DNA of 64,000 bases from an uncultured bacterium (GCA_963768835.1 CAVYJB010000001.1:216420-280419), one strand, 5' to 3'; counted from the first letter of the stretch, positions 6,476 through 32,311 are shown. A program made the numbers and translations. Notes: generated by a model not told the origin, from the sequence alone.

Positions 6476-6582
6476 ACAGCTCATTTTTTTATGCCATCAA
6501 GAGGACCGCGGGCGTAAGCCCGTGAAGTTTCATTTGTCAATTGATTTTTCTTATGGTTTAATAGGTACAGGTAGATACAAGG

Positions 6583-7836: not shown

Positions 7837-7857
7837 CCCGGGACAATCAAAAGAATA

Positions 7858-12047: not shown

Positions 12048-14570
12048 CTAAGAAACGGGATTGGACAGCCGCCTTCGCCGCGTTCTGCGGAACACAGAGA
12101 ACCCTAGGAATCCAATGATACCGGCGCCGGTAAGGATAGAAAGCCATTCCCCGACCGTGGCATCCATCCCCGCGCGGTAGGTAAGCGTCGTCCGTCCGTT
12201 CGAAAGCACGAGCATTTGCCCCGGCGTCACAGGGAACACGCGTCCCCCGTCCGTCCGCCGCCAATACGGGAAGTACCCGAGATTCACGATCGTGGGGCCC
12301 TCGGAGTAGAAATCGACCGTGTGGTCCGAAAATTCACCAATCGGCACGGATGTGCTCGCAACCGGATTCGGAACCGCATTGGAATGAATGAAGGTGTCGA
12401 GAGCGCTGAGCGCGTTAAGATTCGGCTGCGTCACCCCCCCTGCCCCGTCGCTTAATGAAACCAATTCTGCTCCATCCGCTTCCTGCGTGGAACTCGGAGC
12501 GCCTCCGAGCCCGAGCGGCGTTGTCCCCGTGTTCAGAACGAGAATCGGCTTCCCAAAACTCTCCAGGTATTGCAGAAGGGACGGATTGGGGCGCGAGAGG
12601 CCGACAATGATGAAATTGAAAGGACGCGCCGCATCCGCGGAAAGCGCATCGGTCGCGCCGGGCCACCCCGCGACGGGATAGGAGAGAAGATCCGGTTCCG
12701 AGTACCAGCCGAGCGCGAAGATGCGGAACGGAATCGAGCCGTCCGCGTCGAGGTAGAGGCCGGGCATGTGGTCCGCCGTATACACGAACGGCTTGCTCCC
12801 TTTGACCCAGAAAAGCGCGAAGGTGCCGTACGTTTGGACCAGCGTGGTTCCCGGGATGGCCTGCGACTGGAGGGTGAAACCGGGCGTCGCGCTCAGGAAG
12901 TAGTTGACCCCGAAGAGCCGCAGCCGGTCCACCATGCTTTCGGGAGTCTGCCCCTCAAAATAGTTGTTGTTCTCAAGATAACTCACCTTCCCCCACTCCA
13001 TATGGTCGCCTGTGAGCGCATTGGTCGCCGGGAAAATGAACGGAAGCTGCCAGGCCGACTCGGCATAGAGACCGAAAATGGAACGCTGGCCGTTCAGGAG
13101 CGGCAGAAGCGAATTGAAGAAGTGCATCGAACCGAGATCTCCGGATTCCGACTGGACCATGGTAGGCAACACGCGTCGCACGGGCTCGGGAAGGGCGGTC
13201 TCTCCCCCGAGAGTTTTGATGATCGCCATCCCGGGAGCAAAATCCTTGAATTGGTCGAACGTCCAATAATACGGGATGTCCTCCGAGATTCCCGACACTC
13301 GCGCTTTATCGGGGACATCATTGGAGCCGGCACCCAGGTTATATTTCCCCACAAGATTCACGAGGCCGAAAAGAAAAACTCCGAGGACGACATACCCTAA
13401 GGCCTTTTTCCGCTGCGCCAACACGTCGTAGGTTCGCACGAGCCCCCAGGCGGCAACCGCAAGGAGTACCGCGAACTCTCCGCTGAAAAACCGGTAGTAG
13501 TGGAGCGTGAGGTCAGGGAACATCGCGTTCAGGTAGTCGAGTTCGAGGATCACGAACGAAACACCGACCAGGAACGGCAGGAATGCATCGTGCTTCCGGA
13601 TGAGCCCCCACGCGCCTATGAAAAAGAGGAGCGCCAGGAAGAGCCAACCGTAGTCGACCGTGAAAAAGTGGCCGGCCACAAGTTCGCCCAGATCAAATGG
13701 GAAGAGCCCGGACAGGGGGGTCCGCGAATAGCTGACCGTATCGATCCGCTCCGCCGACGTAAACGATTGATGGAGCGCAAACGGTATAAGCCAGAACGCA
13801 GAAAGAAGCGCCCCGATCATCGCAACCGCCACAAGCATTGCAATCCTCTTCCGGTCAAAGAGCGCGCGCACGTGGTAGAGGACAAAAAGAATGGTCCAGA
13901 TAAACGCGAGGACAAGGGTAAGCGTGTGTGCGAGGACAAGAAGTGCGAGGGCGGCACCACCGGAGACACAAAGACCGAATTGAAATTTTTGACCTTTTAG
14001 AATCCGACGCAACACCATGAGGTACCAGAGAAGAAAATTGACGGCAAGGACCTGCGAAAAAAGCCCGAAAAACACAGCTCCGGCCGCTCCCACGCCGCTT
14101 GAGCTGGGAAGTTTAGGGAAAAACACCCAGAAGAACGAGAACCAAAGCCCCCAGCGCGCCACGCGGGCACCGTAGTATTCCTTCGTAAAGAAATAGAACG
14201 CGATGGGGAAAACCGCGAAGGTCAGGAACACAAACCAACGGAAAATGAGCAGGAGCGGTAACGCCGGACCCGTTAGAAGCGCAATGCCGCCCATCACAAG
14301 GAATGAGAGGGGCGCATAAAAGAGAAATAAAGGGGACCCCCCGAACCAGGTGCTGGAGTAGGTGAAGAAATGCCCCGAAGCGAGCTCAGGGAGATACTCG
14401 TTCAGCGCGAGGTAGTGCCCTACGGTGTCCCAGCCGGGCAGAAGCTCGTTTGTGAAGAGAAGGCCTTGGAATCGGAACAAGAGAACACCGATGTAGATGG
14501 CGATAAAGGCGTAGAGCCATGCCCTACGCCTTATCTCTCCATTGAATCGCCGGAGTATCGCTAACGGCAC
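12048..14570 (-). CDS. large polytopic membrane protein (about 14 TM helices plus ~350-aa extracytoplasmic C-terminal domain); possible glycosyltransferase/YfhO-like
   Basis: ORF extends to 14648 (ATG, 88-nt overlap with upstream gene); GTG at 14570 avoids the overlap; many hydrophobic helices. Confidence 0.65.
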   Translation of the reverse strand: MPLAILRRFNGEIRRRAWLYAFIAIYIGVLLFRFQGLLFTNELLPGWDTVGHYLALNEYLPELASGHFFTYSSTWFGGSPLFLFYAPLSFLVMGGIALLTGPALPLLLIFRWFVFLTFAVFPIAFYFFTKEYYGARVARWGLWFSFFWVFFPKLPSSSGVGAAGAVFFGLFSQVLAVNFLLWYLMVLRRILKGQKFQFGLCVSGGAALALLVLAHTLTLVLAFIWTILFVLYHVRALFDRKRIAMLVAVAMIGALLSAFWLIPFALHQSFTSAERIDTVSYSRTPLSGLFPFDLGELVAGHFFTVDYGWLFLALLFFIGAWGLIRKHDAFLPFLVGVSFVILELDYLNAMFPDLTLHYYRFFSGEFAVLLAVAAWGLVRTYDVLAQRKKALGYVVLGVFLFGLVNLVGKYNLGAGSNDVPDKARVSGISEDIPYYWTFDQFKDFAPGMAIIKTLGGETALPEPVRRVLPTMVQSESGDLGSMHFFNSLLPLLNGQRSIFGLYAESAWQLPFIFPATNALTGDHMEWGKVSYLENNNYFEGQTPESMVDRLRLFGVNYFLSATPGFTLQSQAIPGTTLVQTYGTFALFWVKGSKPFVYTADHMPGLYLDADGSIPFRIFALGWYSEPDLLSYPVAGWPGATDALSADAARPFNFIIVGLSRPNPSLLQYLESFGKPILVLNTGTTPLGLGGAPSSTQEADGAELVSLSDGAGGVTQPNLNALSALDTFIHSNAVPNPVASTSVPIGEFSDHTVDFYSEGPTIVNLGYFPYWRRTDGGRVFPVTPGQMLVLSNGRTTLTYRAGMDATVGEWLSILTGAGIIGFLGFSVFRRTRRRRLSNPVS

Positions 14571-16108
14571 GATTGCGTAAACGGAGTGTTGTTCGGAGCA
14601 CCGGGCCGACCATAACCGCCGGCCGCGAGCGATGCCTGGAACGCACAAGAGTTATTGCTTGACGGACCGCCGCCATTCGGCCATCCACAGTAGACGGTCT
14701 GGATCTTGGTACCAGGATCTGTTGCGCCGCAGGGGAGCACCATCGCCGACGCATAAACAACATTGTTGTTGATATGATCCACGACGGTGCCGTTGATCGT
14801 AGGGCAAAAGAGCTGGCCCGAAGTATAATATCCGCAGTAGTCGGCGGATCCGTAGGTGGTTATCTCAGCACCTCCCGCACTCGCATCGTAAAGATGGACC
14901 TTCTGTATCAACGTGCCTCCGTTATAGGTTTGCTGCCCCGCCCAGTCCGTTATGTAGTAGGGATCGTAGTACTGCACCACTCCGCTGCAGTTGTAGTCCC
15001 AACTGCCGCCGCTTGAAGAAGTAAACCATGCGGTTTGCCCAGGGAACACATTCCCGTCCGAATCTTTGCAATCGAGAGTGGGAGCCGCACTCGTGACGTT
15101 AGCCTGGTTTGGCAATACGTTTGCACCCGAAACATAGCCGCTGCCGCACGAAGAAGATTGTGGGACAACGTTCGCGCTCGGAGTATATTTATCTCCATCC
15201 GCATCGGTGTAACAGACGTAATTCTCTTGCATAGCCCCTGATCCCGCGATACCAACCTGGGCCGAAGCTCCCAATGTCATGGCAGTACCAGGACTCTTTG
15301 CGAGTATGGCGGTGCCAGAAAGATTGATTGAAACATTGGAAAGCGTCGAGTTCCCATCGTAGCCGTAGCCGCCGGTTGAGACAGTGCAACTAGCCAAAAG
15401 TTGTCCGGAGCTGTTATACGAGCACGTGGGGTCAGACCATGGAATAGACCAGGCATCTTGGCGGTTCTGGTTATCGGTTGCTACGAAGCTCGTGCGGTAG
15501 GTGGTCTGGTGCGTATCGTGCACAGTCCAAGAACCTTCGTAGGTGTATTCCATCGCACCTTCAGCGTTCGCAGAGGAAATGAGCGAGGCGATAACGCTCG
15601 CGATCTCGCTCTTTGTGGCAGGAAGTGTAGCACCGTTATTTATCACAACAACGCCCTTCTGATCCACTAGGATTTCCCTATTCTGAAGCTCATTCTCCGC
15701 CATCGCCTTTGTACCCATAAGTTGCAACGGAACCGTATCTTCCCCGTTGTCATGTTGGACGGTGGCGACAACAGATTGGGGCTGTCCGATAGAGAGGACC
15801 ACCACCGTCATCGTCTGCGTGCTTCCGGGCCGCGCGTCCACGGGATCTACCTTTCCAGAGAGAAAGCGAGGGTAGTTGTCGGGGCGTGAGGAAACCTGGA
15901 ACTCTTCCGAGCCTTTGGGAACTTGCCAAGCTTTCCCCTGCGCATTCACATACGTGGTCCATTTCCCAGGCATGATCTGCAAAGCTAATGTGTTCAAAAT
16001 AGTTGGCTCACCCTTGGAACCGAAAGCGGAGAGGGCCCAAGCTGTGACCGCAAGAAGAACCACGATGAGGATGGCCATGTAGATAACCGTGTCCTGACGC
16101 TTTTTCAT
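14561..16108 (-). CDS. secreted Thr/Ser/Gly/Cys-rich protein
   Basis: N-terminal signal anchor MAILIVVLLAVTAWALSAF; 515 aa with repeated Cys-containing segments. Confidence 0.7.
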   Translation of the reverse strand: MKKRQDTVIYMAILIVVLLAVTAWALSAFGSKGEPTILNTLALQIMPGKWTTYVNAQGKAWQVPKGSEEFQVSSRPDNYPRFLSGKVDPVDARPGSTQTMTVVVLSIGQPQSVVATVQHDNGEDTVPLQLMGTKAMAENELQNREILVDQKGVVVINNGATLPATKSEIASVIASLISSANAEGAMEYTYEGSWTVHDTHQTTYRTSFVATDNQNRQDAWSIPWSDPTCSYNSSGQLLASCTVSTGGYGYDGNSTLSNVSINLSGTAILAKSPGTAMTLGASAQVGIAGSGAMQENYVCYTDADGDKYTPSANVVPQSSSCGSGYVSGANVLPNQANVTSAAPTLDCKDSDGNVFPGQTAWFTSSSGGSWDYNCSGVVQYYDPYYITDWAGQQTYNGGTLIQKVHLYDASAGGAEITTYGSADYCGYYTSGQLFCPTINGTVVDHINNNVVYASAMVLPCGATDPGTKIQTVYCGWPNGGGPSSNNSCAFQASLAAGGYGRPGAPNNTPFTQSCR

Positions 16109-16241
16109 ATTAGTTCTATTATATCATATTTCCCTTGAAAATCCTTGAAAAACTTGACTTTTCTGCTCTTGTTTGCTATAATGGAGACAGAAATAAGTTT
16201 GTAAACCGAATATTCACTTTAGCGATAGAAGGGGGTGTGGA

Positions 16242-17897
16242 ATGAAGAAATTAATTGTTTTAGTGCTCGGCATCGTTATGCTTGGCACAATCGGTGGGCG
16301 TGCGGGTCAGAAAACCGCTACGACGCTCGCAAACGGCGCTACGGTCTTGAATGTGGATGGGCGAATCCTTTCGTCCAACCCCGTGCTTGACCCGAACTAC
16401 AGAAATATTCTCGACCCTGCGTCAAACCTAGCGAAGTCCTCTGGGTTCACGGAAATTCCACAGAACATAACCCAGGTATGGACGGATTCGTTCACACTCG
16501 GAGGGACACAGGATGTTCCGCTTTTTGTGAAAGTGGACGGGCTCGGGAACTCGTATGTCAACGGGTGGCGATCGGTTTATCCTGCCCCTTATGACTACGC
16601 GCGTGCGGTACTCCGGAAGTTCTCGCCTTCAGGTGTCCCTCTCTGGTCCATACAGACCATGCAGGACACTACCGCCTCCGGCTGGAACCAGATAACCACG
16701 CTCTCCGACAATTCTGTTGTGTGGGCATGGTCCGGGTTCATCAACATCGACAGTACGCACATCGAGAAGCTTTCCCCGACCGACGGTTCGCTCATCTGGC
16801 AGACCGCTATCCGTGGAGACGTCCTCTTGGGTTCATACGGGAATACAGTCATCGCGGTGCAATGCAGCTACACGAGCGGCAGAATCTTCCTGCTCGACTC
16901 TACGGGAACGATCTTCCGAAGTTTCCCGACGAGCAATGATTCGGCAGGCTCCGCAGTGACGGGGAATGTCACAACTCGCGTCTGGAACGGAAGGCTCTAC
17001 TTGTTTGCTGGGCGTCCAGGCGGGGTCGCGATTTCTCTTTCCTCGTATGCGGCCTGCTATGACCTCGCGTCAGGCTCGTTTCTCTGGAGACAGGATTTCG
17101 TGGACCTCGAGCGGCTCTTCGGCGACGTCGACATCGATGGTAACGTCTATGCCGGAGGCAGCTTATGGACCGACGATTTCCCGCAGTTCGGCAATATGCG
17201 CTTCGTCATGAAGAAGTTCTCTCCGGACGGAGCACCGCTCTGGGCAACAGGATGGTTTCCGAAGTCCAATCCGGACGGCAACTGGGAAAACTGGGGGAAC
17301 GGAATCGCCGTTTCCCACCAGAGCTCTCCGGGGCAACGGGTCGTCGTTCTGCTCGGAATCACCGAACGGGATACAGTGGACACGGGAGCTCGCCTGAACT
17401 ACGTTCTAGGACGAAAGGCTTCAACCGGCGATTCACTCTTCGTCATGACCTGGGAGTATGGCACGGATGCGATCGTGAACGGGGTGAACGGTGGTCAGTT
17501 CGATTCAGACAATGACCTTATCGTTCTCGGACAAGAGTACCGAGGCTCTGGGCCTGTTTGGGGATACGGACATCTGCATAAGTTCGAAGGAATTGTTGCT
17601 TCTGTAGAGGTGTTGCCGGGTCTCGTGCCAACCAGTTTCATCCTCCATCAGAACTACCCCAACCCCTTCAACCCTTCGACCGTCATCCGGTTCGAGGTGA
17701 AGAAGGAAGTTCCTGTCTCACTGTTCATTTACAGTGTCACGGGAGCGAGGGTGGCGACTCTTCTGGAGAACGAGCGGAAGGCTTCGGGAGTCTATGAAGT
17801 CTCCTGGAACGCTTCGCAGTTCGCTTCGGGGATCTACTTCTATCGCCTTATCGCTGGATCGTTTGTTGAGACGAAGAAGATGGTGTTCCTGAAGTGA
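16242..17897 (+). CDS. secreted protein with T9SS-type C-terminal sorting domain
   Basis: signal peptide; C-terminal ~80 aa (NYPNPFNPSTVIRFEV...GIYFYRLIAGSFVETKKMVFLK) match the Por/T9SS CTD pattern; GGGTG RBS. Confidence 0.85.
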   Translation: MKKLIVLVLGIVMLGTIGGRAGQKTATTLANGATVLNVDGRILSSNPVLDPNYRNILDPASNLAKSSGFTEIPQNITQVWTDSFTLGGTQDVPLFVKVDGLGNSYVNGWRSVYPAPYDYARAVLRKFSPSGVPLWSIQTMQDTTASGWNQITTLSDNSVVWAWSGFINIDSTHIEKLSPTDGSLIWQTAIRGDVLLGSYGNTVIAVQCSYTSGRIFLLDSTGTIFRSFPTSNDSAGSAVTGNVTTRVWNGRLYLFAGRPGGVAISLSSYAACYDLASGSFLWRQDFVDLERLFGDVDIDGNVYAGGSLWTDDFPQFGNMRFVMKKFSPDGAPLWATGWFPKSNPDGNWENWGNGIAVSHQSSPGQRVVVLLGITERDTVDTGARLNYVLGRKASTGDSLFVMTWEYGTDAIVNGVNGGQFDSDNDLIVLGQEYRGSGPVWGYGHLHKFEGIVASVEVLPGLVPTSFILHQNYPNPFNPSTVIRFEVKKEVPVSLFIYSVTGARVATLLENERKASGVYEVSWNASQFASGIYFYRLIAGSFVETKKMVFLK

Positions 17898-17918: not shown

Positions 17919-17960
17919 CAAAAAGGCCCCGATACGTTATGTATCGAGGGCCTTTTATAT
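17919..17960. terminator. bidirectional rho-independent terminator between convergent genes
   Basis: caaaaa-ggccccgatacg-ttat-gtatcgagggcc-ttttat. Confidence 0.65.
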
Positions 17961-17976: not shown

Positions 17977-19638
17977 CTACTGCGCCAGATATTTGTCCAG
18001 GTTCAAGCCTTGGACATTTGTATGAGCAGTGTTCGGCCAGTTGGCGGCATCGAAGCGGGGCGCCGTCAGGCGGTAGGAGACCTGTCCGGCAGCGCTCCCA
18101 CGAATGGTGAGTGTCTCGCGGGAGACGTCCTTCTCGTACCACACGTCCCCGTCGAAGGACGGGAGAAGGAGCACCGCCACTTGCCTGAAGTTCGAAGCAA
18201 GATTCGCCGCGTTGGCGAAAAGCCAGAGATCGGATCCTTTCGGCGCGCCAGCAAGGTCAAGGGTTGCCGCATAGCCATTCCCCTGTTTTGTGAGCGTCGC
18301 CGTCCCCGCCGTCTCCTCCTTCTGCCCCGTCATACCGGTTCCGTAGGTCGCGTACTGTTTGCCACCAATGGTGTAAACCGGGTCCCAGGTAGCGACTGTG
18401 ATCTTCCCCCCGGCCAAGGAAAGCCATCCGCCGGCCGCGCTCGTAAGGGTCATGTTGCCGCTCGTGCCCGCCTGGAACCAGAGAGTCCCACCGTTGATAC
18501 CGATGGCATACTTGTTCGAACCATCATCCCAAAGAATGAGCCGGTCGCCACTTGCAATAGCTCCCGCCCCGCCGGGCCCAGAGTAGCCGCCATTGGAGAT
18601 AAGGACGGCGCCGTTTACATATAACGCCTCACCCACCACCGAAGAGTTCCCGACATCCATCTTGTAGCCGGTGGAATTGGGGTAAAGACCGCTTCCGGAG
18701 AGGGTCCAGTAAGGCGATGCAGCGCCCGCGGAACCCGTGGGGCCAGCGGGGCCGTTCGCGCCCGCGAAACCTCCGGTAGGACCTCGCGGACCGGTAGAGC
18801 CCTGCGCACCCGCGAAACCTCCGGTCGGACCTTGCGGACCGGTAGGGCCGTTTGCGCCCGCGAAACCTCCGGTCGGACCTACGGGCCCGGTCGAGCCGTT
18901 TGCTCCGTTCGTGCCGGTCGGACCTCGCGCACCCGTCGGACCCGCGGGACCCGTCCCGCCCGCAGAACCGTTCGTCCCGGCGGCTCCCTGTGGACCCTGC
19001 GGACCTGTTGCTCCGTTAGAACCGTTTGAGCCAGTAGGCCCCCTGGCGCCCGTAACTCCTCCGGGACCGGTTGCGCCGATCGCGCCGTTCGTGCCGGTCG
19101 GACCTTGGGCACCCGTAGGACCGCCAGGGCCTGTACCGCCAGTAGAACCGTTCGCGCCATTCGTGCCAGTCGGACCCCGCGGACCGGTCGGACCAGTTGG
19201 GCTTGCGCCATTCGCTCCCGCAGGACCTCCGGGGCCTGTGGGGCTCGTACCGTTCGCGCCCGCGGGCCCCGTGGAACCTGTGGGGCCCTGCACGCCAGTC
19301 GGACCCGCGGTCCCCGAAGGGCCGGTAACACCGGCGATTCCCTGGGGACCCGTTGGAGAAATTCCATTCGTGCCTGCAGGCCCCATGGGACCCGAAGGGC
19401 CAGTCGCACCTTGCGCTCCATGCCAGTTCACCCACGATGAACTGTTGCAAATTAAGTGTGACCCCGTCGTGGAGGAGAAGTAAACCGTACCGGCGTTAGC
19501 TGAGTTGCAGGTGACGGGCGGCGTCGAGGTCGGCACAAAATTGAGCGTTGTAAGTTGCTGCCCGCTCGCAACCAAAGCGACGCCCATTCCGGCAATGAGG
19601 ATGACGCCAGCGAGGTTGTGGAGAGTGCGTCGATCCAT
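17977..19638 (-). CDS. collagen-like triple-helix repeat protein (GPT/GXY repeats) with conserved C-terminal globular domain
   Basis: signal peptide, about 80 Gly-X-Y triplets rich in GPTG/GATG, C-terminal ~240 aa shared with 19651..21369 and 31237..32307. Confidence 0.8.
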
Positions 19639-19650
19639 AGCAGTACAGGC

Positions 19651-21369
19651 TTATCGGGAAAGGAACGTGTCGAGGTTCAGCCCTTCTGTTGCTTCGTTGG
19701 AGGTATTCGGCCAGTTGGCACTGTCAAAGCGAGGTGCGGTCAGACGATAGCTCACCTCGTACGGTCCGGCATCGGAAGCGCTGCTGTTCTCTCGGCCGAG
19801 AATCGTGAGTGTCTTCGCAGCTATGTCCTTCTCATACCACACGCGACCGGGGAACGAGGGGGTCACGAGTGCCGTGAGCCCGTCGAAAGCGTTCACAAGG
19901 TTGGTCGCCTTTCCGAAAAGCCAAACGTCCGAACCCTGGGGGAGATTATTAAAATCAAAAACGTACGCGAGGAGACCTGGCGTACCCGTCGGCTGGAGAT
20001 CGACAAGCCCCGCCGTCTCCTCCTTTTGTCCTGTCATACCGGTTCCGTAGGTCGCGTACTGTTTGCCACCAATGGTGTAAACCGGGTCCCAGGTACCCAC
20101 GGTAATTTTCCCCGCCCCTCCATAAGGACCGTTGCCCACGGTGAGTGTGCCCCCAGAGCCGTTTGAAAGACTCATATATCCGCTCGTGCCCGCTTGGAAC
20201 CAGAGGTTTCCACCGACGATCCCGATGCTGTACTTGTTCGAACCATCATCCCAGAGGATAAGCCGGTCGCCCGTGCTGATACTGCCCGCGGCTCCTGGGC
20301 TGTTCACCGTGCCGGGGTTTATGAGCGCAGCGCCCGTGACATTCAGTTTATAATTCCCCGGCGAGGAGTTCCCGATACCGACATTGTAGGTAGTGGAATT
20401 CGGGTAGAGACTGCTTCCGGAGAGGGTCCAGTAGGAACTCCCTGCGCTGCCCCCAGGACCCGTGGGGCCGGTCGAACCGGTTGGGCCCGCAGGACCCTGA
20501 ATACCTGTAGGACCAGCGATACCGGTTGGGCCCGCAGGACCCTGAATACCTGTAGGACCAGCGATACCGGTCGGACCCGCAGGACCCTGGATACCCGTAG
20601 GACCTACGCCACCGTTCGTGCCTGCAGCACCTTGAAGACCCGTGGGGCCGTTGGGACCGGTAGGGCCTACACCACCGTTAGAGCCGTTCGAGCCTGTATT
20701 GCCAGTGGGACCGGTAGGACCCGCACCACCGTTGGAACCTCCGGCGCCTGTAAGACCCGTGGGACCGGTGGGACCGGTGGGACCCCCACCGCCATTGGAG
20801 CCGGCAGAACCCGTGAGCCCCGTCGGGCCTGTGGCACCCGTGGGACCTGCACCACCGTTAGAGCCGTTCGAGCCTGCTGCACCTTGAAGACCTGTCGGGC
20901 CTCCCGGACCTGTTGAACCATTGGTTCCTGCGCTTCCCGTCGGACCTGTCGGGCCTGTTGAACCGTTCGAACCTGCACCTCCCGTGGGACCTGCCGAGCC
21001 AGTAGGTCCGGTCGGACCCTGCCCTTGACCCGTAGGGCCGGTCGCACCCTGAAGACCTGTGGGACCGTTCGAGCCGTTCGCGCCCGCCGAGCCTGAGGGA
21101 CCCGTAGGGCCGGTCGCGCCTGTGGCGCCAGCGTAGGTACTCCACCCTACACCATTACAGATGTACTCATTATTATCTGTGCCGAAATAGACAGCTCCTT
21201 TATTGGATCCGCCGCTGCAGCTGAGAGGCGCCGAAGCCTGAGGCACGAATTTAATGCTTTGAAGCAACTGGGCCTGCGCAAGGTAGGCAACACCGCTTGC
21301 GACAACTGCAAGCGCGAGTCCGATAACGACATGCTCGATCCTAAAATGTTTCCGCATGCGGGGGAACAA
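19651..21369 (-). CDS. collagen-like triple-helix repeat protein, paralog
   Basis: same architecture as 17977..19638; conserved [28 protein letters not shown] block. Confidence 0.8.
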
Positions 21370-21375
21370 TATCCG

Positions 21376-21858
21376 TCACTTCGCAAGACTGAGACATGAA
21401 GCGACCCGCGTTTTATCGGTGAGGGTCGAGCAGAGGGACGGGTTTTTGGAATCGCGCGCCATCACAATGATCGTGCTGTCCACACACCCACTTTGATAGA
21501 CCGGATTTTCTATATTGTTACAGATGGAAGTGTTCTTTGCGTCTCCTGCCTGCGCCGTAAATACGGCGACGCGGCAATATTCTTTTGAAGAAGAAATCCC
21601 GATCATATCGCACTTTGTGAGGTCGCGGTTGTTCTGCGCATCCGTCGTCATCGCGCGGATGGCAGCCGGGTCGGTCACAAGAGGCACTGAAGGCACGGGC
21701 TGCGGAGATACGGCTGACCCTCCCCCCGCGCCAGGGTTCATCTGCCCTGACCCGATGACACCACCAAGATAAAGCACCGCGACGAATGCGAAGACGATGA
21801 CCGCAATGACGCCTGCTAGAACCTTAGGATCCTTTTTCCAATCAGCTCCGTTTTCCAT
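21376..21858 (-). CDS. small membrane-anchored Cys-rich protein
   Basis: ORF runs to 22305 but overlaps the + strand gene; start at MENGADW (21858) gives 160 aa with one TM helix. Confidence 0.45.
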   Translation of the reverse strand: MENGADWKKDPKVLAGVIAVIVFAFVAVLYLGGVIGSGQMNPGAGGGSAVSPQPVPSVPLVTDPAAIRAMTTDAQNNRDLTKCDMIGISSSKEYCRVAVFTAQAGDAKNTSICNNIENPVYQSGCVDSTIIVMARDSKNPSLCSTLTDKTRVASCLSLAK

Positions 21859-21987
21859 AAATAAATGTGTTTTCTCGCGTATGAAAATTCCGAGGACCTT
21901 TCTATTTCCTCTATTATAGCACACGCCACTCACCGCCTGATGCGGGAGACGGGAGAATAGTCTCAAGCCTCCACTGGAACCGAAAAA

Positions 21988-23766
21988 ATGGGATATACTT
22001 ACCGCATGGAATCCCGACCGCGCATGCCCGCACGCACCCGAACCTTCGTGGCGTGTGCCCTCGGGGTACTCGCGCTCACCATTCTCGCCTACTCGAATCA
22101 CTTCGGTAATACCTTCCATTTCGACGATACGCACACCATCGTGGATAACGCCTATGTCCACGACATCACGAACCTCCCCCGCTTCTTTACAGACGTCCGG
22201 ACAAACAGCGCGACACCGAACAACCAGGTCTATCGTCCTCTCCTTCTCTCTCTCTTCGCGCTTGACTACTGGATCGGCGGCGGGCTGAACCCCGTCGTTT
22301 TCCATCTCACAATCTTCGCATTCTTCCTCCTTCTCGGTTTCCTTCTCTTTCTTGTCCTCAAGAAGGTGATGGACCAGGCGCGCCCAGGACCCCGGAACGA
22401 TATCATCGCACTCATCGGGACCGCGCTCTTCCTTCTCTCCCCCGCAAACACCGAAGGTGTGAACTATATTTTCTCAAGCTCGGAGGTCCTGGTGACCGTG
22501 TCCGTACTCGCTGCGTTCGCGCTCTACCTCTACCGCCCTGCGTGGAGGAAGTATTGCCTCTACCTCATCCCCATCGTCCTCGGCTCGCTCGTGAAGCTCT
22601 CGACTGTGATGTTCGGCCCGCTCCTTTTCGTCTACCTCTTCTTCTTTGAGCATGAGGACCCCACACCGCGTTTCGCGCGCCGCTTCGCCCGCGCACTCGC
22701 GCAGTCGGCGCCCGCCCTGATCCTTTCGGGCATCCTTTATCTTTTCGTCCGTTCGATGGACGCGCCCTGGGTCGTCCTCTCGACCACGCCGGTCTGGAAC
22801 TATCTCATCACGCAGCCGTTCGTTCTTTTGAGCTACGTCACGACGTTTTTCCTCCCGATCCATCTCTCGGTCGACACGGACTGGGGTGTCGCGACCGGCG
22901 TGCTCACCCCCGGGGTGCTCATCGGCGTCGCGTTCATTATTCTCTCGCTCATCGCCGCCTACCGTACCTCCCTCAAGCGCGAAATGCGGCCCATCGCGTT
23001 CGGCATCCTCTGGTACTTCATCGCCGCGCTTCCCACCTCAAGCATCGTCCCTTTCTCCGAGGTGACGAACGACCACCGCGCTTTCTTCTCCTACGTCGGG
23101 CTCGTGCTCGCGCTTGTGTGGTCCCTCTATCTTCTCTTCGAGCGCCACCACGAGCTGTTCGCCCGCGACCGGCGCCTCCGAGCCCTCCTCTACGCTCTCA
23201 TCTTCGCGGTCCTCGCGGCGAGCGCCATCGGAACGTACAACCGTAACAAGGTATGGAAAACCGAGGAATCGCTCTGGCAGGACGCCGCGGAAAAGAGTCC
23301 CTTGAACGGCCGGGCACTCATGAACTATGGCTTAACGCAGATGGCGAGGGGGCACTACAGCACGGCGAAGGAATACTTCGAGCGGGGGCTCACGCTCCTG
23401 CCGGCGTATCCCTATCTCGAGATCAACCTCGGCATCGTGAACAACGCGCTGGAGAACACCGCGGACGCGGAGGCGCACTTCGCCCGCGCGTACGCGCTCG
23501 CGCCCGACCTCCCGCAGGCAGCATTCTACTACGGGCAGTTCCTTTACACGCACGGTAGCTCGACCGACGGGTTCCCGCTTCTCGCCAAGGCGCTTACGGA
23601 GAGCCCCGGAGCACTCGACGCGCGGGATTCCATTATGCAGACCCTCGCCGACGCCCACGATTACGCGCGGCTCGCGGACATCGCACGTCAAGTCCTTGCG
23701 TCCTCACCGAACGACCCGACCGCCCTCCGGTACCTCGGGATGGCCGCAACATCCACCGCGCCGTAG
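21988..23766 (+). CDS. polytopic membrane protein with C-terminal TPR repeats (GT-C/PMT-like glycosyltransferase candidate)
   Basis: about 11 TM helices then TPR-like ALMNYGLTQMARGHYSTAKEYFERGL repeats. Confidence 0.7.
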   Translation: MGYTYRMESRPRMPARTRTFVACALGVLALTILAYSNHFGNTFHFDDTHTIVDNAYVHDITNLPRFFTDVRTNSATPNNQVYRPLLLSLFALDYWIGGGLNPVVFHLTIFAFFLLLGFLLFLVLKKVMDQARPGPRNDIIALIGTALFLLSPANTEGVNYIFSSSEVLVTVSVLAAFALYLYRPAWRKYCLYLIPIVLGSLVKLSTVMFGPLLFVYLFFFEHEDPTPRFARRFARALAQSAPALILSGILYLFVRSMDAPWVVLSTTPVWNYLITQPFVLLSYVTTFFLPIHLSVDTDWGVATGVLTPGVLIGVAFIILSLIAAYRTSLKREMRPIAFGILWYFIAALPTSSIVPFSEVTNDHRAFFSYVGLVLALVWSLYLLFERHHELFARDRRLRALLYALIFAVLAASAIGTYNRNKVWKTEESLWQDAAEKSPLNGRALMNYGLTQMARGHYSTAKEYFERGLTLLPAYPYLEINLGIVNNALENTADAEAHFARAYALAPDLPQAAFYYGQFLYTHGSSTDGFPLLAKALTESPGALDARDSIMQTLADAHDYARLADIARQVLASSPNDPTALRYLGMAATSTAP

Positions 23767-23772
23767 CAGCCG

Positions 23773-25956
23773 CTACGGCGTTTTCTTCATGGCGGCGGTC
23801 AGCTGGTCCAGGTTATTCTTGGCCCGCGTGAAGTCGGGCTTCAGGGCGAGCGCTGTTTTGTAGGCTGCGAGAGCGCTGTCGTCCATCCCCTTCGACTGGT
23901 AAACGAATCCGAGATTGTTGTAGGCCTCGGCGTAGGAGGAATTCTCCCGTATAGCCTCTTTGGTGGCCGCGAGCGCGGTATCCCAGTCACCCGCCTCGAT
24001 GGCCACGAAGCCGAGATTGAAGAAATTCTCCGGCGTGGGAGTCGCGTCCGCGACACGCTGCGCGGTCGCGACGTTCGCGGCGTTCTGCGCCGCGATGCCC
24101 GGCGCGGTGTCATTGATATAGTACACAAAGATGGAGTGGCCGATGGTCGTGACGGGCCGGTAGGCTCCGAGCCATCGGTAGGAATCGCTGGACCAACCGT
24201 TCCTCGGGCCCGGTTCTGTCTGTCCCCACGCGAGCGCGCGGGCCGGGATCGCGACCCATCCCAGGACCGGGGTTGCAGGAGGAAGTTCGCGGTACCGGTT
24301 CCCGAGGTAGTACGGGAAACTGGAGCTGAACGCGGCGGCGGAGAAAAGCCCCGGCGTGCCCTCGTACGAGACGGCGACCTGCGACGCAACCTGGATGGTC
24401 GGAATACCCTGAGCCCCGACCCAGTCCGCGAGACGCCGGGCATCCTGTCCCCAATCGAGATCGGTGTCGACCACGTAGCGGTAGCCGCCATCGGGGCCGC
24501 CCACGAGTTCGTTGAAGTAGGCGAGGAAGGAGGGATAGACCGAGGCAACCGCGATCACCTGCCACGCGATGAGCGCGGTCACCACGATGACGCGCCAGAC
24601 TTTGCCGTTCTCGAGCCATTGGGCGACTCCGGCGCCAATCAGGAGAAACACGAAGGGGAGCGTCGGGATGAGATATCGGACGCCGGTGTTGATGGAATTC
24701 GGCACGATGAGAACGAACCAGTAGAAAAGTACCCAGAGGACCGCCGCGGCCGTGAAGAGATGTGCGCGGATCCACGGCGCGACGACGGTGGTGTAGGTCT
24801 CGCGCACTTTCTTGCGCGTGAGCGCTCCGAGCCCGACGAGAATCGTGATCAGCGTGAGGATATGGAATGCGAGCGGCTCCTTGATGGCGTACCCGACCGG
24901 GAAGAAAAGCGGGAAACCGGTCGTCGAGCCCTGGCCCTCGAAGTACGCGAACGCGGATCCTCGCGTGTACTGCCAGAGAACTCCGGTCAGGTATTCGGCG
25001 AACGGCCGCAGCACCGGAACGGTCGCGAGCGACGAGATCTCCGGCGCAAGAGGCGCCCATTTTGTCGAGGTTATGATGGTCCGGATATCGTCGGCCTGCT
25101 GCCCGGCCGGGTACCGGGCGATGTGGAGCTGGTAAACGGCTCCCACCACCACGATGCAGACAAGCCCTATAAGGAGTAGTTTGGGGAGAATCGCCCGGAC
25201 GCCCTTCCAGAAGGAACGCCACCCTGCGCTCCGCGCGACGGCCCACACGACCACGAGCAGAAGGAAGAACGGAATGAGGAGGAGGAGCGAGAACTTCACA
25301 AGCTCCGCGATGCCGAGCACGACGCCGGCGGCGAGCGCGGTCTTGCGGGTGGGCGAACCGAGAAACCGGACAAACCAGTAGGTCGCCAAGAACGCGGCGA
25401 ACGCCGTCATCACGTCCGTCGTCACGAGACGCCCATGCCCCAAGATGAGCGGCGAGGTCGTGAAGAGCGCAAGCGCGATGAAGCCCGCGGTCGTTCCCCA
25501 GTGCCGGCGGGTCAGCGCGAATACGCACCACCCGAAGAGGAGTGTGAGAAGGATCATGGGCAGGCGAGCCCACCAGAGAATCACATCGACCGGCTTCGTC
25601 TGGTTGAACAGGAATTGCTCACCAAAGGACCACACCGCATCGCTCAGGTTGGTGCCCGGCGGAAGATTCAAGAAATCGGAGGCGGGACGAAGGTTGAGAA
25701 ACAGGAGCGGAATCGCCGCGATATCCCGCACGAGGGGCGGGTGCTCGAACCCGACACGCATCGTCTGTTCCGTAAGATAGAGATAGCCGGTGGGAAGATA
25801 GAGGGACTCGTCCGTCGTATAGGTATCGCCATGCACGGAGAACGCCATCGCGGTCCCCATCCCGAGGAGCAGCGCGCACGCGAGAACCGTTTGCCAGGAG
25901 GGCTGCCGGAACCTCTTTTTCGGATGCTCGTCCACGCTACAGAGTATACTCGACAA
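23773..25956 (-). CDS. GT39/ArnT-PMT-like membrane glycosyltransferase with C-terminal TPR repeats
   Basis: N-terminal multi-TM domain typical of polyprenyl-phosphate-sugar dependent GT-C enzymes; C-terminal TPR (AYNNLGFVYQSKG...). Confidence 0.75.
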   Translation of the reverse strand: MSSILCSVDEHPKKRFRQPSWQTVLACALLLGMGTAMAFSVHGDTYTTDESLYLPTGYLYLTEQTMRVGFEHPPLVRDIAAIPLLFLNLRPASDFLNLPPGTNLSDAVWSFGEQFLFNQTKPVDVILWWARLPMILLTLLFGWCVFALTRRHWGTTAGFIALALFTTSPLILGHGRLVTTDVMTAFAAFLATYWFVRFLGSPTRKTALAAGVVLGIAELVKFSLLLLIPFFLLLVVVWAVARSAGWRSFWKGVRAILPKLLLIGLVCIVVVGAVYQLHIARYPAGQQADDIRTIITSTKWAPLAPEISSLATVPVLRPFAEYLTGVLWQYTRGSAFAYFEGQGSTTGFPLFFPVGYAIKEPLAFHILTLITILVGLGALTRKKVRETYTTVVAPWIRAHLFTAAAVLWVLFYWFVLIVPNSINTGVRYLIPTLPFVFLLIGAGVAQWLENGKVWRVIVVTALIAWQVIAVASVYPSFLAYFNELVGGPDGGYRYVVDTDLDWGQDARRLADWVGAQGIPTIQVASQVAVSYEGTPGLFSAAAFSSSFPYYLGNRYRELPPATPVLGWVAIPARALAWGQTEPGPRNGWSSDSYRWLGAYRPVTTIGHSIFVYYINDTAPGIAAQNAANVATAQRVADATPTPENFFNLGFVAIEAGDWDTALAATKEAIRENSSYAEAYNNLGFVYQSKGMDDSALAAYKTALALKPDFTRAKNNLDQLTAAMKKTP

Positions 25957-25987
25957 CCTTTCTTGATGGAACCTCAGGAATGCGGGT

Positions 25988-27028: not shown

Positions 27029-27034
27029 CGGCCT

Positions 27035-29142: not shown

Positions 29143-29161
29143 ACCGCGCGAGGCGTGCGGT

Positions 29162-32307: not shown

Positions 32308-32311
32308 GGAA

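What the first reader, a model, noticed from the sequence alone, without database searches (positions are those of the whole stretch)
17977..21369. Tandem collagen-like (GPT-rich GXY) proteins sharing a C-terminal domain with a third non-collagenous paralog at 31237..32307
Seen in sequence: two adjacent minus-strand genes (553 and 572 aa) each have a signal peptide, about 240 aa of uninterrupted Gly-X-Y triplets dominated by GPTG/GATG/GSNG, and a conserved C-terminal domain ([14 protein letters not shown]...[33 protein letters not shown]...GSDLWLF). The same C-terminal domain, without collagen repeats, ends the protein at 31237..32307.

Established knowledge: the architecture resembles BclA-type exosporium or phage-fibre proteins (collagen stalk plus C-terminal trimerisation/receptor domain).

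Inference: the shared C-terminal domain family is not one I recognise.
Basis: partly seen in the sequence, partly recalled or inferred. Interest (0 to 1): 0.6.

Follow-up and report, generated by a model that had tools for sequence, protein, structure and literature searches.

The report
Collagen-stalked surface fibres of Patescibacteria
Two neighbouring genes encode secreted proteins with a long collagen-like stalk ending in a conserved, structurally undescribed ~150-residue domain. That domain marks a very large, unstudied family of fibre-like surface proteins in ultra-small Patescibacteria (CPR bacteria), which may be how these cells touch their hosts.

Summary
Genes A (17977..19638, -, 553 aa) and B (19651..21369, -, 572 aa) each encode an N-terminal hydrophobic leader, a ~47-aa two-cysteine domain, 75-77 GPT-rich Gly-X-Y triplets, a short fibre module and a conserved end domain. 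Gene C (31237..32307) shares only the last ~150 aa.

- A's array has six breaks and B's has one, so neither is uninterrupted.
- The domain shared with C is ~150 aa, not ~240.

The end domain has no Pfam, NCBIfam, PHROG or PDB sequence match. It models confidently (pLDDT 85) as a beta-sandwich with a helical segment. Foldseek against the PDB finds nothing significant, and no TNF/C1q fold appears among the listed matches.

The domain is not rare. At least 1,078 clusters (50% identity) carry it at E<=1e-30, mostly in Patescibacteria, usually at the extreme C-terminus of 200-4,700-aa proteins. Some giant relatives carry up to ~1,700 aa of collagen repeat.

The module before the domain shares a repeated motif with the crystallised trimeric Bdellovibrio MAT fibres.

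Best reading: trimeric cell-surface fibres (collagen rod ~66 nm), registered by the C-terminal module and probably O-glycosylated by the adjacent glycosylation genes. The ligand and the attached end are unknown. This is a new variant of a known kind.

The parts
19651..21369 (-). Gene B, 572 aa (TTG start; alternative ATG at 21357): collagen-like fibre protein
   Evidence: ORF. Pfam Collagen E 1.8e-20. Family HMM E 7e-65. No self-hit in the 5.8-billion-cluster protein collection and no exact copy among 15 billion sequences.
21271..21369 (-). B residues 1-33: basic N-terminus plus hydrophobic leader ending AQA (putative Sec signal peptide)
   Evidence: Read from the sequence. No predictor was run.
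21130..21270 (-). B residues 34-80: small two-cysteine N-domain (L..I.FVP....P..C.....G..YF........C....W) directly before the collagen
   Evidence: The same domain is found in A, P0182, P0214, P0088, P0097 and P0104, with 10 invariant columns.
20434..21129 (-). B residues 81-312: 77 Gly-X-Y triplets with one break (GQGQG); contains a 45-nt unit x2.9 at 95% identity (20476..20604)
20119..20433 (-). B residues 313-417: fibre module ([32 protein letters not shown]..., [17 protein letters not shown]...)
   Evidence: The family profile over this region matches the repeated SGNVGIGTxxPxxKLxV motif of Bdellovibrio MAT fibre crystal structures: 8ond E 5e-4, 8ol4 E 9e-3, 8ojn E 0.02. AF2 confidence as a monomer is low.
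19654..20118 (-). B residues 418-572: conserved end domain ([22 protein letters not shown]...GSDVWLF...VWYEKD...[12 protein letters not shown])
   Evidence: Family HMM. AF2 pLDDT 85, pTM 0.75. 12 invariant columns including D428-P429. No significant PDB fold match.
17977..19638 (-). Gene A, 553 aa: paralogue of B
   Evidence: ORF. Pfam Collagen E 5e-18. Present in public protein data only as a 227-aa truncated call, P0001.
19564..19638 (-). A residues 1-25: putative signal peptide
   Evidence: Read from the sequence.
19420..19563 (-). A residues 26-73: two-cysteine N-domain
18718..19419 (-). A residues 74-307: 75 Gly-X-Y triplets with six breaks; 48-nt unit x3.1 at 18751..18900
18415..18717 (-). 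A residues 308-408: fibre module
   Evidence: Aligned with B residues 313-417, where 63 of B's 105 residues are identical.
17980..18414 (-). A residues 409-553: conserved end domain (D419-P420)
   Evidence: Family HMM E 4e-60.
17927..17949 (-). Terminator-like hairpin plus T-run 28 nt after the stop of A
   Evidence: This is a consensus match only; the number found equals the number expected from shuffles.
21376..21864 (-). Small membrane-anchored protein with repeated Cys motifs, 6 nt upstream of B (probable first gene of the operon). The 309-aa ORF listed is probably over-extended.
   Evidence: 33% identical to the 160-aa protein directly upstream of the collagen-like homologue P0182 in L001.
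31237..32307 (-). Gene C, 356 aa: short non-collagen family member (leader, F-x-GP-C...C N-motif, GIGTxxP...L.V fibre motifs, end domain)
   Evidence: An exact copy is in the public collection on a 353,519-bp contig.
31240..31671 (-). C residues 213-356: divergent copy of the end domain (D222-P223)
   Evidence: Family HMM E 1e-41. 35-39% identical to A and B.
21988..23766 (+). Polytopic membrane protein with C-terminal TPR repeats, divergent from the B operon (candidate GT-C-type protein glycosyltransferase; inferred)
   Evidence: TPR hits only. The N-terminal FHFDDTH motif and the membrane-plus-TPR architecture are my reading.
23773..25956 (-). PMT_2 (protein O-mannosyltransferase-like, GT-C) plus TPR, 727 aa
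   Evidence: PF13231 E 8e-12.
25988..29142 (+). NDP-sugar modification genes: SDR epimerase/dehydratase, sugar C-methyltransferase, RmlD-like reductase
29162..29908 (-). GT2 resembling polyprenyl-phosphate sugar synthases (PpgS, dolichyl-P-hexose transferase, AglJ), all below the curated cut-offs
12048..17897 (.). Syntenic neighbours conserved with the P0182 locus: Por_Secre_tail protein (16242..17897, +), 515-aa protein (14561..16108, -), 866-aa PTPS_related-like polytopic membrane protein (12048..14648, -)
   Evidence: 31%, 33% and 43% identity to the L001 genes in the same order.

Best explanation
A and B are paralogous, co-transcribed genes for trimeric cell-surface fibres of a Patescibacteria (CPR) bacterium.

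Proposed mechanism:
1. Each chain is exported through an N-terminal Sec-type leader.
2. Three chains are brought into register by the C-terminal part, meaning the conserved ~150-aa domain plus the preceding beta-fibre module.
3. The ~232-residue Gly-X-Y array then zips into a collagen triple helix. At 0.286 nm per residue this gives a rod of about 66 nm.
4. The Thr-rich Y positions (GPT triplets, no hydroxyproline system evident) are probably O-glycosylated outside the membrane. The candidate pathway is the adjacent island: NDP-sugar modification enzymes, a polyprenyl-P-sugar synthase-like GT2, and GT-C/TPR transferases. This would resemble BclA.
5. The fibre projects from the cell and serves contact or adhesion, or forms a protective nap. 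The end domain's three variable loops on an otherwise near-invariant scaffold are the candidate specificity determinants.

C is an ordinary short member of the same family, with a beta-fibre stalk instead of collagen.

Shown here: gene structure, the collagen repeats, family membership, family size and taxonomic spread, absence from known families and folds, the motif shared with the MAT fibre stalks, and conserved synteny.

Inferred: export, trimer formation, glycosylation, which end is attached, and the adhesive role.
For: Gene structure and repeats:
- ORFs and collagen arrays.
- 12-nt and 6-nt intergenic gaps, with a terminator-like hairpin after A.
- A versus B: dN/dS ~0.25 with dS ~1.2, so both are old and under purifying selection. 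There are no long identical DNA tracts.

The end domain:
- No match in Pfam, NCBIfam or PHROGs, and none to PDB sequences for the core.
- Confident AF2 model (pLDDT 85, residues 31-155 mostly >90) with no significant PDB fold match. The best hits, E 0.1-0.3, are C-terminal domains of phage tailspikes and depolymerases.
- Weak BFVD hits (best E 8e-5) mostly to uncharacterised phage proteins, a few named tail fibre.

Family size and distribution:
- 1,078 clusters at E<=1e-30 and 3,496 at E<=1e-10.
- Domain at the extreme C-terminus in 67 of 94 ORFs.
- 50 of 80 species-level loci are titled as Patescibacteria lineages.

Trimer indicators:
- Collagen itself requires three chains.
- The pre-domain module shares the SGNVGIGTxxPxxKLxV motif with Bdellovibrio MAT fibres solved as intertwined trimers. 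That paper describes related 'capping loops' on the trimeric beta-helix (PMC10769870).
- BclA's C-terminal domain promotes trimer formation, and its collagen region is glycosylated (PMC10470788).

Recurrence of collagen with this domain:
- P0182 and P0214 have the same N-domain, collagen and end domain.
- Seven giant relatives carry 51-1,740 aa of Gly-X-Y.

Conserved scaffold with variable loops:
- Three variable-length loops of 0-42, 0-18 and 0-12 aa.
- A and B differ most in loop 1, with 5 of 20 residues identical.

Glycosylation context:
- PMT_2+TPR, a second membrane+TPR protein, epimerase, C-methyltransferase, RmlD-like reductase and a polyprenyl-P-sugar-synthase-like GT2 between B and C.
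- A PTPS_related-type polytopic membrane protein is syntenic in both the window and L001.

Multi-copy families: 3 copies in this window and 3 in L001.
Against: - No experiment or expression data exist for any family member.
- Trimerisation of the end domain was not modelled; only monomer AF2 was available. The most conserved segment ([21 protein letters not shown]) is only moderately confident in the monomer.
- In 27 of 94 relatives the domain is internal and followed by a 290-805-aa tail, most ending in an FNWW/FNWL-type motif. It is therefore not obligatorily the distal tip or a terminal folding nucleus.
- The extreme conservation of the scaffold is unusual for a receptor-binding tip.
- The glycosylation link rests on proximity. 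The membrane+TPR proteins next to giant relatives (L066, L076) are not BLAST-homologous to the window's beyond TPR.
- The hits for the 592-aa protein, the 866-aa protein and the GT2 are weak or below curated cut-offs.
- The signal peptides were not tested with a predictor.
- The taxonomic origin of the window itself is inferred from its homologues; the source record could not be retrieved.
Confidence: 0.6

Rival explanations
1. The conserved domain is primarily an assembly or self-processing module rather than a binding tip. It would be a functional analogue of the S74 intramolecular chaperone or a collagen C-propeptide. It registers the three chains and may then be cleaved off, or cross-link the fibre, at the invariant Asp-Pro bond (B D428-P429). 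Self-cleaving Asp-Pro bonds occur in FrpC-type self-processing modules and in GDPH sites (from memory).
For: - The scaffold is near-invariant across very diverse fibres, which is typical of assembly modules: 12 invariant columns, many of them charged or polar (D, E, S, Y, R, D).
- D-P is invariant in the 42- and 50-sequence alignments and >=90% conserved in 181 sequences.
- The domain always lies C-terminal to the stalk, including when a further tail follows it.
- The domain accepts both beta-fibre and collagen stalks.
- S74-bearing fibres occur in the same genomes, for example the L059 neighbour.
Against: - No Peptidase_S74 signal in any of 50 members, and no S-D-x-x-x-K motif (in B the spacing is SDVWLFGK; A has no Lys).
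- The predicted fold is a beta-sandwich.
- Nothing here shows cleavage. An invariant D-P can equally be a structural turn.
- The variable loops suggest a surface under diversifying pressure.
Confidence: 0.15
2. The orientation is reversed. The conserved C-terminal domain is a cell-envelope anchoring or sorting domain (binding the wall or S-layer), and the variable N-terminal parts are distal.
For: - 'Constant end proximal, variable end distal' is the usual logic of surface proteins. MAT fibres, for example, have a constant N-terminal domain thought to sit proximal to the cell.
- The domain is constant across thousands of proteins whose remainder varies.
- No other anchor (LPXTG, C-terminal TM) is visible.
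Against: - In 27 of 94 relatives the domain is internal with long tails after it.
- The N-termini fall into a few conserved types immediately after the leader, which looks like the proximal end.
- A few relatives have pilin-like N-termini by eye (P0010, P0025, P0021), which would fix the N-terminus in the membrane or pilus. Pfam N_methyl did not confirm this.
- The domain has no similarity to SLH, LysM, CWB or other wall-binding folds.
Confidence: 0.12
3. The genes are phage or prophage tail-fibre genes (collagen-like tail fibres) rather than cellular surface proteins.
For: - PHROG tail-fibre families hit A and B at E down to 4e-44.
- BFVD fold hits include phage tail-fibre proteins.
- The weak PDB fold hits are phage tailspike C-terminal domains.
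Against: - The PHROG matches lie in the collagen array and at most the short module after it (best stretches end at or before residue 432). C and the end domain hit nothing.
- None of six neighbouring proteins hits any PHROG.
- The surroundings are housekeeping and glycosylation genes: CysRS, DnaB, tRNAs, GTs.
- The proteins carry secretion leaders.
- The same gene order is conserved in another genome.
Confidence: 0.04

Closest known systems
BclA (Bacillus anthracis exosporium nap glycoprotein) and BclA-like proteins
   Same: - Short N-terminal domain, then a GPT-rich collagen-like region of variable length, then a ~130-150-aa C-terminal domain.
- In BclA the C-terminal domain promotes trimer formation, and the collagen region is glycosylated (PMC10470788).
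- Here, sugar-biosynthesis and transferase genes lie nearby.
   Different: - The C-terminal domain is not TNF/C1q-like. No such fold appears among the 50 listed matches of either PDB fold search.
- The N-terminus is a secretion leader plus a two-Cys domain, not an exosporium-targeting peptide.
- A beta-fibre module sits between the collagen and the end domain.
- The organism is a Patescibacteria-type bacterium, not a spore former.
- The candidate transferases are GT-C/TPR membrane enzymes acting outside the membrane.
Bdellovibrio bacteriovorus mosaic adhesive trimer (MAT) fibre proteins (Bd2133, Bd1334 and others; PDB 8ond, 8ol4, 8ojn; Caulton et al. 2024, PMC10769870)
   Same: - Secreted, long, trimeric fibres with repeated SGNVGIGTxxPxxKLxV-type motifs.
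- These are the only solved structures that the family profile hits (E 5e-4 to 0.02).
- The C-terminal globular domain has no PDB homologue, as was reported for the Bd2133 tip.
- Multi-copy families proposed to mediate contact with other bacteria.
   Different: - MATs have a constant ~130-aa N-terminal domain and swap their C-terminal tips. This family keeps the C-terminal domain constant and varies the stalk.
- No collagen is reported in MATs (0 occurrences in the paper).
- The match covers only the repeat motif, not the end domain.
Streptococcal Scl1/Scl2 and Legionella Lcl collagen-like adhesins
   Same: Bacterial surface proteins with a collagen triple-helix stalk next to a globular trimerising domain. 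NCBIfam models hit the Gly-X-Y region.
   Different: - Scores are far below the cut-offs (72-97 bits against 325-500).
- There is no LPXTG anchor.
- The globular domain is C-terminal here, whereas the Scl V domain is N-terminal.
- The arrays have almost no charged residues (only four Arg in A's Y positions, none in B). Charge pairs are a known way of stabilising Scl2-type collagen without hydroxyproline (from memory).
Collagen-like phage tail fibres and Peptidase_S74 (intramolecular chaperone) fibres
   Same: Collagen or beta-helical trimeric stalk followed by a C-terminal module needed for trimer assembly. PHROG tail-fibre families match the collagen part.
   Different: - No S74 domain.
- The end domain is absent from PHROGs.
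- Cellular, chromosomal context with secretion leaders.

Membership tests
Collagen triple-helix repeat proteins (Pfam PF01391) | Long runs of Gly-X-Y scoring above the Pfam gathering threshold | tested here: met
   A scores 65 bits and B 72.9 bits against a cut-off of 27.2. A has 75 triplets and B has 77.
BclA-type exosporium collagen-like glycoproteins | GPT-rich collagen-like region | tested here: met
   GPT is the commonest triplet (14 of 75 in A, 25 of 77 in B). Thr is the commonest Y residue.
BclA-type exosporium collagen-like glycoproteins | C-terminal TNF/C1q-like jelly-roll trimerisation domain | tested here: not met
BclA-type exosporium collagen-like glycoproteins | N-terminal exosporium-targeting domain that binds BxpB; host is an exosporium-forming Firmicute | not tested
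   No model of that motif was available. By reading, the N-termini are secretion leaders plus a two-Cys domain, and relatives come from Patescibacteria MAGs.
Scl1/Scl2 (LPXTG-anchored collagen-like adhesins) and Lcl | Whole-protein score above the NCBIfam cut-off | tested here: not met
   72-97 bits against cut-offs of 325-500. The matches lie in the Gly-X-Y region only.
Scl1/Scl2 (LPXTG-anchored collagen-like adhesins) and Lcl | C-terminal LPXTG sortase signal | tested here: not met
   The proteins end ...[10 protein letters not shown] and ...[10 protein letters not shown]. Across relatives a median of 6 residues follows the domain.
Bdellovibrio MAT fibre proteins | Repeated fibre motif (V-G-G/N-pi-x-x-P-x-x-x-L capping loops) of an intertwined trimeric beta-helix | tested here: met
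   The family profile hits 8ond (Bd2133) at E 5e-4, 8ol4 at E 9e-3 and 8ojn at E 0.02, aligned over SGNVGIGTxxPxxKLxV. The motif is described in PMC10769870. The match is marginal and motif-level only.
Bdellovibrio MAT fibre proteins | Conserved ~130-aa beta-rich N-terminal domain directly after the signal peptide | tested here: not met
   Only ~47 residues lie between the leader and the collagen in A and B. No sequence comparison with the MAT N-domain was possible.
Peptidase_S74 (intramolecular chaperone) fibres | C-terminal PF13884 domain with a Ser-Lys (SDxxxK) dyad | tested here: not met
   No PF13884 hit in A, B, C (E<=0.1) or in any of 50 family members. The spacing in B is SDVWLFGK, and A has no Lys.
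Phage tail-fibre proteins (PHROGs) | Match outside low-complexity collagen, plus phage gene neighbourhood | tested here: not met
   PHROG best stretches end at or before residue 432 and lie mainly in the Gly-X-Y array. C and six neighbours have no PHROG hit.
Undescribed Patescibacteria fibre end-domain family (defined here) | ~150-aa domain with motifs GKIxVGTxDPxYTIGGxxYATY, KEETxG, GSDLWLF, FxGxVWYEKD and [12 protein letters not shown], and 12 invariant columns | tested here: met
   The HMM built from homologues scores B at 7e-65, A at 4e-60 and C at 1e-41. The invariant columns are present in all three.

The most novel reading that the evidence does not exclude
The ~150-aa domain is a new fold and a new kind of fibre-assembly module. 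It registers three chains and may self-process or cross-link at its invariant Asp-Pro bond. It defines the principal, phylum-wide family of host-contact fibres of Patescibacteria, onto which either beta-helical or collagen stalks (up to ~1,700 residues of Gly-X-Y) have been grafted. The collagen versions would be O-glycosylated 'hairs' made by dedicated GT-C/TPR transferases.
Probability: 0.2. Interest if true: 0.75.

Novelty: new variant of a known kind. Interest (0 to 1): 0.5.

Why it matters
Patescibacteria (CPR) may account for a large share of bacterial diversity, and the cultivated ones live attached to other microbes. Apart from type IV pili and the recently described Pam pili, the molecules that make contact with the host are largely unknown.

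This work identifies a very large, unannotated family of fibre proteins, with at least 1,078 clusters at 50% identity and up to >4,700 aa per protein. The family has a confidently modelled but unmatched domain, a stalk motif shared with the prey-recognition fibres of Bdellovibrio, and recurrent collagen stalks. That gives concrete candidates to test for host recognition in these organisms.

Two further points follow:
- Bacterial collagen arrays that almost lack charged residues and have no evident hydroxyproline system may rely on Thr glycosylation for stability.
- Gene callers truncate or miss such genes. A is present only as a 227-aa fragment and B is absent from a 15-billion-protein collection, so collagen-like proteins are probably under-counted in CPR genomes.

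Tried and rejected
- **Known domain for the C-terminus.** Pfam, NCBIfam and PHROGs on A, B, C and on 50 relatives found nothing outside collagen. PDB sequence searches with one sequence and with a profile found nothing for the core domain.
- **Full-length B as a query.** The search was swamped by unrelated collagen proteins. Only 2 of the 120 listed hits carry the end domain.
- **N-terminal two-Cys domain profile.** No hit at database-wide E-values; the domain is too short.
- **Recent recombination or gene conversion between A and B.** Rejected. The arrays share no blastn match and the C-terminal parts are only 78-83% identical, with dS ~1.2. Only the 36-codon hairpin segment has a lower pS (0.31).
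- **Shadow ORFs.** Opposite-strand and other-frame ORFs inside the arrays (for example 18737..19483, +) are by-products of the repeat. None is in the protein collection.
- **Source record.** It could not be retrieved.
- **Homology of membrane+TPR proteins.** The window's proteins and those next to giant relatives share only TPR similarity.
- **Literature.** No paper in the library links collagen-like proteins to CPR surface structures. Pam pili (bioRxiv 10.64898/2026.03.03.709456) are Ig-like donor-strand pili and unrelated.


Full report
**1. Observation**

The window contains two adjacent minus-strand ORFs. A is 17977..19638 (553 aa, ATG start). B is 19651..21369 (572 aa, TTG start, with an in-frame ATG 12 nt downstream). 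They lie 12 nt apart.

Both pass the Pfam Collagen gathering score, at E 5e-18 and 2e-20. A has 75 Gly-X-Y triplets in residues 74-307 and B has 77 in residues 81-312. Pro is the commonest X residue (32 in each), Thr the commonest Y residue (25 and 35), and GPT the commonest triplet (14 and 25). Charged residues are nearly absent: four Arg in A's Y positions and none in B.

Two details of the finding need correcting.
- The arrays are not uninterrupted. A has six register breaks and B has one.
- The third protein, C (31237..32307, 356 aa), shares only the last ~150 aa. BLASTP gives 35-39% identity at E 3e-23 and 2e-24, and the family HMM gives E 1e-41.

A and B share the whole ~255-aa post-collagen region at 61% identity. 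A family HMM finds no further copy in the window.

**2. Anatomy**

Each of A and B has these parts in order:
- a basic, then hydrophobic N-terminal leader (read by eye, no predictor);
- a ~47-aa domain with two invariant Cys (L..I.FVP....P..C.....G..YF........C....W) that abuts the first Gly-X-Y;
- the collagen array;
- a ~100-aa module beginning [25 protein letters not shown]...L.V;
- the conserved end domain.

The end domain carries the motifs [22 protein letters not shown], KEETAG, GSDxWLF, VWYEKD and [12 protein letters not shown].

C has a leader, an F-x-GP-C...C motif, several GIGTxxP...L.V motifs and a more divergent end domain.

A and B are old paralogues under purifying selection. Overall dN/dS is ~0.25 and dS ~1.2. 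The arrays share no blastn match, and the C-terminal DNA is only 78-83% identical.

Short internal tandem duplications exist: a 45-nt unit x2.9 at 95% identity in B, and a 48-nt unit x3.1 in A.

**3. The end domain is undescribed but very common**

It has no Pfam, NCBIfam or PHROG match in A, B, C or in 50 relatives. No PDB sequence matches the core.

AF2 on the 155-aa domain with 42 sequences gives pLDDT 85 and pTM 0.75. The model is a beta-sandwich of about eight strands with a helical segment after strand 4. The first ~30 residues, which are the most conserved stretch, are less confident.

A profile search of 1.84 billion cluster representatives finds 1,078 proteins at E<=1e-30 and 3,496 at E<=1e-10. 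In the best 150, which range from 161 to 4,726 aa, the domain lies at or near the C-terminus in most.

A scan of one genome per species gave 160 relatives. The titles of the 80 loci fetched break down as follows:
- 50 name Patescibacteria lineages (Lipton-, Jorgensen-, Brenner-, Falkow-, Gottesman-, Roizman-, Woesebacteria, Paceibacterota, Minisyncoccia, Saccharibacteria);
- 19 name Gammaproteobacteria, Pseudomonadales or Proteobacteria, 18 of them from one automated TPA series whose labels I could not verify;
- 8 are unnamed;
- 2 are DPANN-labelled archaea;
- 1 is Elusimicrobia.

Across 181 aligned domains the scaffold is close to invariant. Three loops vary in length, by 0-42, 0-18 and 0-12 aa. 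D-P, A-T, G, E, G, W, S-Y, R and D are invariant columns.

**4. Two architectures, and recurrent collagen**

In 67 of 94 ORFs from the fetched loci the domain is terminal, with a median of 6 residues after it. In 27 it is followed by a 290-805-aa tail, most ending in an FNWW/FNWL-type motif. Those whose titles name a lineage are mostly Microgenomates-type genomes.

None of the best 150 representatives contains collagen, but collagen stalks recur elsewhere in the family.
- P0182 (549 aa, GCA_027347265.1) and P0214 (836 aa) have the same two-Cys N-domain, a collagen array and the end domain.
- Seven giant relatives (L047, L049, L059, L066, L067, L070, L076) carry 51-1,740 residues of GPTGSTGATG-type repeat before the domain.
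- P0088, P0097 and P0104 have the same N-domain and end domain with beta-fibre modules in place of collagen.

The stalk is therefore an exchangeable element between a small set of N-terminal types and a constant end domain.

**5. Link to solved structures**

The only PDB sequences the family profile touches are the Bdellovibrio mosaic adhesive trimer (MAT) fibres: 8ond/Bd2133 at E 5e-4, 8ol4 at E 9e-3 and 8ojn at E 0.02. The alignment runs through the repeated SGNVGIGTxxPxxKLxV motif.

The MAT paper solved these as intertwined trimers. It describes related capping loops on the trimeric beta-helix (consensus V-G-G/N-pi-x-x-P-x-x-x-L), a constant N-terminal domain thought to sit near the cell, and exchangeable C-terminal tips that bind prey surface glycans (PMC10769870).

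The match is motif-level and marginal. Together with the collagen stalks, which are obligate trimers, it is still the basis for calling these proteins trimeric fibres.

**6. Context**

The window is chromosomal, with CysRS, DnaB and five tRNAs. It is not phage. PHROG hits stay within the collagen array and at most the short module after it, and no neighbour hits a phage family.

A small membrane protein with Cys repeats sits 6 nt upstream of B, and a terminator-like hairpin follows A.

The gene order is conserved around P0182 in another genome. It runs: small Cys-repeat protein, collagen gene, convergent Por_Secre_tail protein, a ~500-aa protein, then an ~850-aa PTPS_related-type polytopic membrane protein. 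Identities are 31-43%. That genome has a single collagen gene where this window has two, so A and B look like a tandem duplication.

Between B and C lies a glycosylation island:
- a membrane+TPR protein;
- a PMT_2+TPR GT-C enzyme;
- an SDR epimerase/dehydratase;
- a sugar C-methyltransferase;
- an RmlD-like reductase;
- a GT2 resembling polyprenyl-phosphate sugar synthases, below the curated cut-offs.

Membrane+TPR proteins and type IV pilin-like genes also follow giant relatives in L066, L070 and L076. They are not BLAST-homologous to the window's proteins beyond the TPR repeats.

**7. Mechanism**

Best-supported: A and B are secreted, trimeric surface fibres.

The C-terminal module (beta-fibre segment plus end domain) most likely sets the register of three chains. 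The Gly-X-Y array then forms a triple helix of about 66 nm (232 residues at 0.286 nm rise, from established collagen geometry).

The arrays almost lack charged residues and no hydroxylation system is evident, so Thr O-glycosylation is the likeliest stabiliser. BclA offers a precedent: its collagen region is glycosylated and its C-terminal domain promotes trimer formation (PMC10470788). The adjacent island encodes a plausible pathway from NDP-sugar to polyprenyl-P-sugar to GT-C transfer outside the membrane.

The role is contact, adhesion or a protective nap. The variable loops of the end domain are candidate specificity determinants, and A and B differ most there (5 of 20 residues identical in loop 1).

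Export, trimerisation, glycosylation, orientation and ligand are all inferred. Confidence is 0.6.

Rivals:
- The end domain is chiefly an assembly or self-processing module, possibly acting at the invariant Asp-Pro (0.15).
- The end domain is the cell-proximal anchor (0.12).
- The genes encode a phage tail fibre (0.04).

**8. Comparison and novelty**

In function the proteins resemble BclA, MAT fibres, Scl adhesins and collagen-like phage fibres. They are members of none of these.
- The TNF/C1q fold test failed.
- NCBIfam Scl/Lcl scores are far below the cut-offs, and there is no LPXTG.
- There is no S74 domain.
- The MAT N-terminal domain is absent.

They belong to an undescribed end-domain family centred on Patescibacteria. 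I rate this a new variant of a known kind: a trimeric collagen or beta-helical surface fibre with a new conserved domain and an unusual constant-C-terminus logic.

A practical point concerns gene calling. A exists in public protein data only as a 227-aa fragment. B is absent altogether, with no self-hit and no exact match. Collagen-like genes in these genomes are therefore likely under-called.

Noticed in passing
window 16242..17897 (+): Secreted 551-aa protein with a T9SS-type C-terminal sorting domain (Por_Secre_tail, E 1e-7), convergent with gene A. An orthologue (31% identity) sits in the same position next to the collagen-like homologue in L001. A T9SS sorting domain is unexpected in a Patescibacteria-type genome.
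   Followed up: partly
window 12048..16108 (-): An 866-aa polytopic membrane protein (weak PTPS_related PF10131, E 0.01) and a 515-aa protein. They are 43% and 33% identical to the syntenic L001 genes. They may be part of the same surface or glycosylation module.
   Followed up: partly
window 21988..29908: Glycosylation island: two polytopic-membrane+TPR proteins (one PMT_2), an SDR epimerase/dehydratase, a sugar C-methyltransferase, an RmlD-like reductase, and a GT2 resembling polyprenyl-P-sugar synthases.
   Followed up: partly
window 29915..32845 (-): Gene C lies in a tight operon between a cupredoxin-like 177-aa protein (5-nt gap) and a 441-aa membrane-anchored protein of unknown family (4-nt overlap).
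   Followed up: no
window 32961..33926 (+): Secreted 321-aa protein with repeated W-N-D-x-(I/V)-G-W-(I/M)-(S/D)-(F/Y) motifs and many Cys. No family match.
   Followed up: no
window 5195..11040 (+): Radical SAM/SPASM enzyme followed by an M16 peptidase, an MA-type peptidase and three unknown ORFs. This looks like a peptide-maturation cluster.
   Followed up: no
window 26943..27032 (-): ARAGORN predicts a 90-nt tRNA-Leu(gag) that overlaps the 3' end of the epimerase ORF 25988..27028 on the other strand. Either the call or the ORF end may be wrong.
   Followed up: no
window 17977..21369: Gene callers failed on these genes. A is present in public protein data only as a 227-aa fragment (P0001). 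B is absent from a 15-billion-protein collection. The Gly-X-Y arrays are open in several frames on both strands, for example 18737..19483 (+), 248 aa.
   Followed up: yes
L047, L049, L059, L066, L067, L070, L076: Giant relatives (up to >3,000 aa as stop-to-stop ORFs; several run off the locus, and three are titled Gottesman- or Woesebacteria). They carry 51-1,740 residues of GPTGSTGATG-type collagen repeat, an internal copy of the domain and a 430-805-aa tail ending FNWWIVN or FNWWIIN. In L059 about 180 aa inside the array read in a shifted frame, probably an assembly or indel artefact.
   Followed up: partly
L047 9154..12465; L067 4245..8360; P0051, P0057: Very large ORFs that begin with an HTH-like N-terminus instead of a secretion leader. 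L047 was confirmed as HTH_17/MerR plus collagen by Pfam. L067, P0051 and P0057 were judged by eye only. Unexplained.
   Followed up: no
L066 5597..8934; L070 8256..12514; L076 8330..12215: Two or three type IV pilin-like genes (N_methyl confirmed by Pfam for one gene each in L066 and L070; the rest read by eye) and a polytopic membrane protein lie directly downstream of giant family members. TPR repeats were confirmed in the L066 and L076 membrane proteins.
   Followed up: partly
L045, L065, L038: The domain also occurs on contigs titled Woesearchaeota, Micrarchaeia and Elusimicrobia. In addition, 19 loci are titled Gammaproteobacteria, Pseudomonadales or Proteobacteria. This could be mis-binning, mislabelling or lateral transfer; it was not resolved.
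   Followed up: no
window 20011..20118 (B residues 418-453) vs A 409-444: The 36-codon segment encoding [34 protein letters not shown] has a much lower synonymous divergence between A and B (pS 0.31) than its flanks (0.56-0.9). This suggests a small gene-conversion tract or a nucleotide-level constraint.
   Followed up: partly
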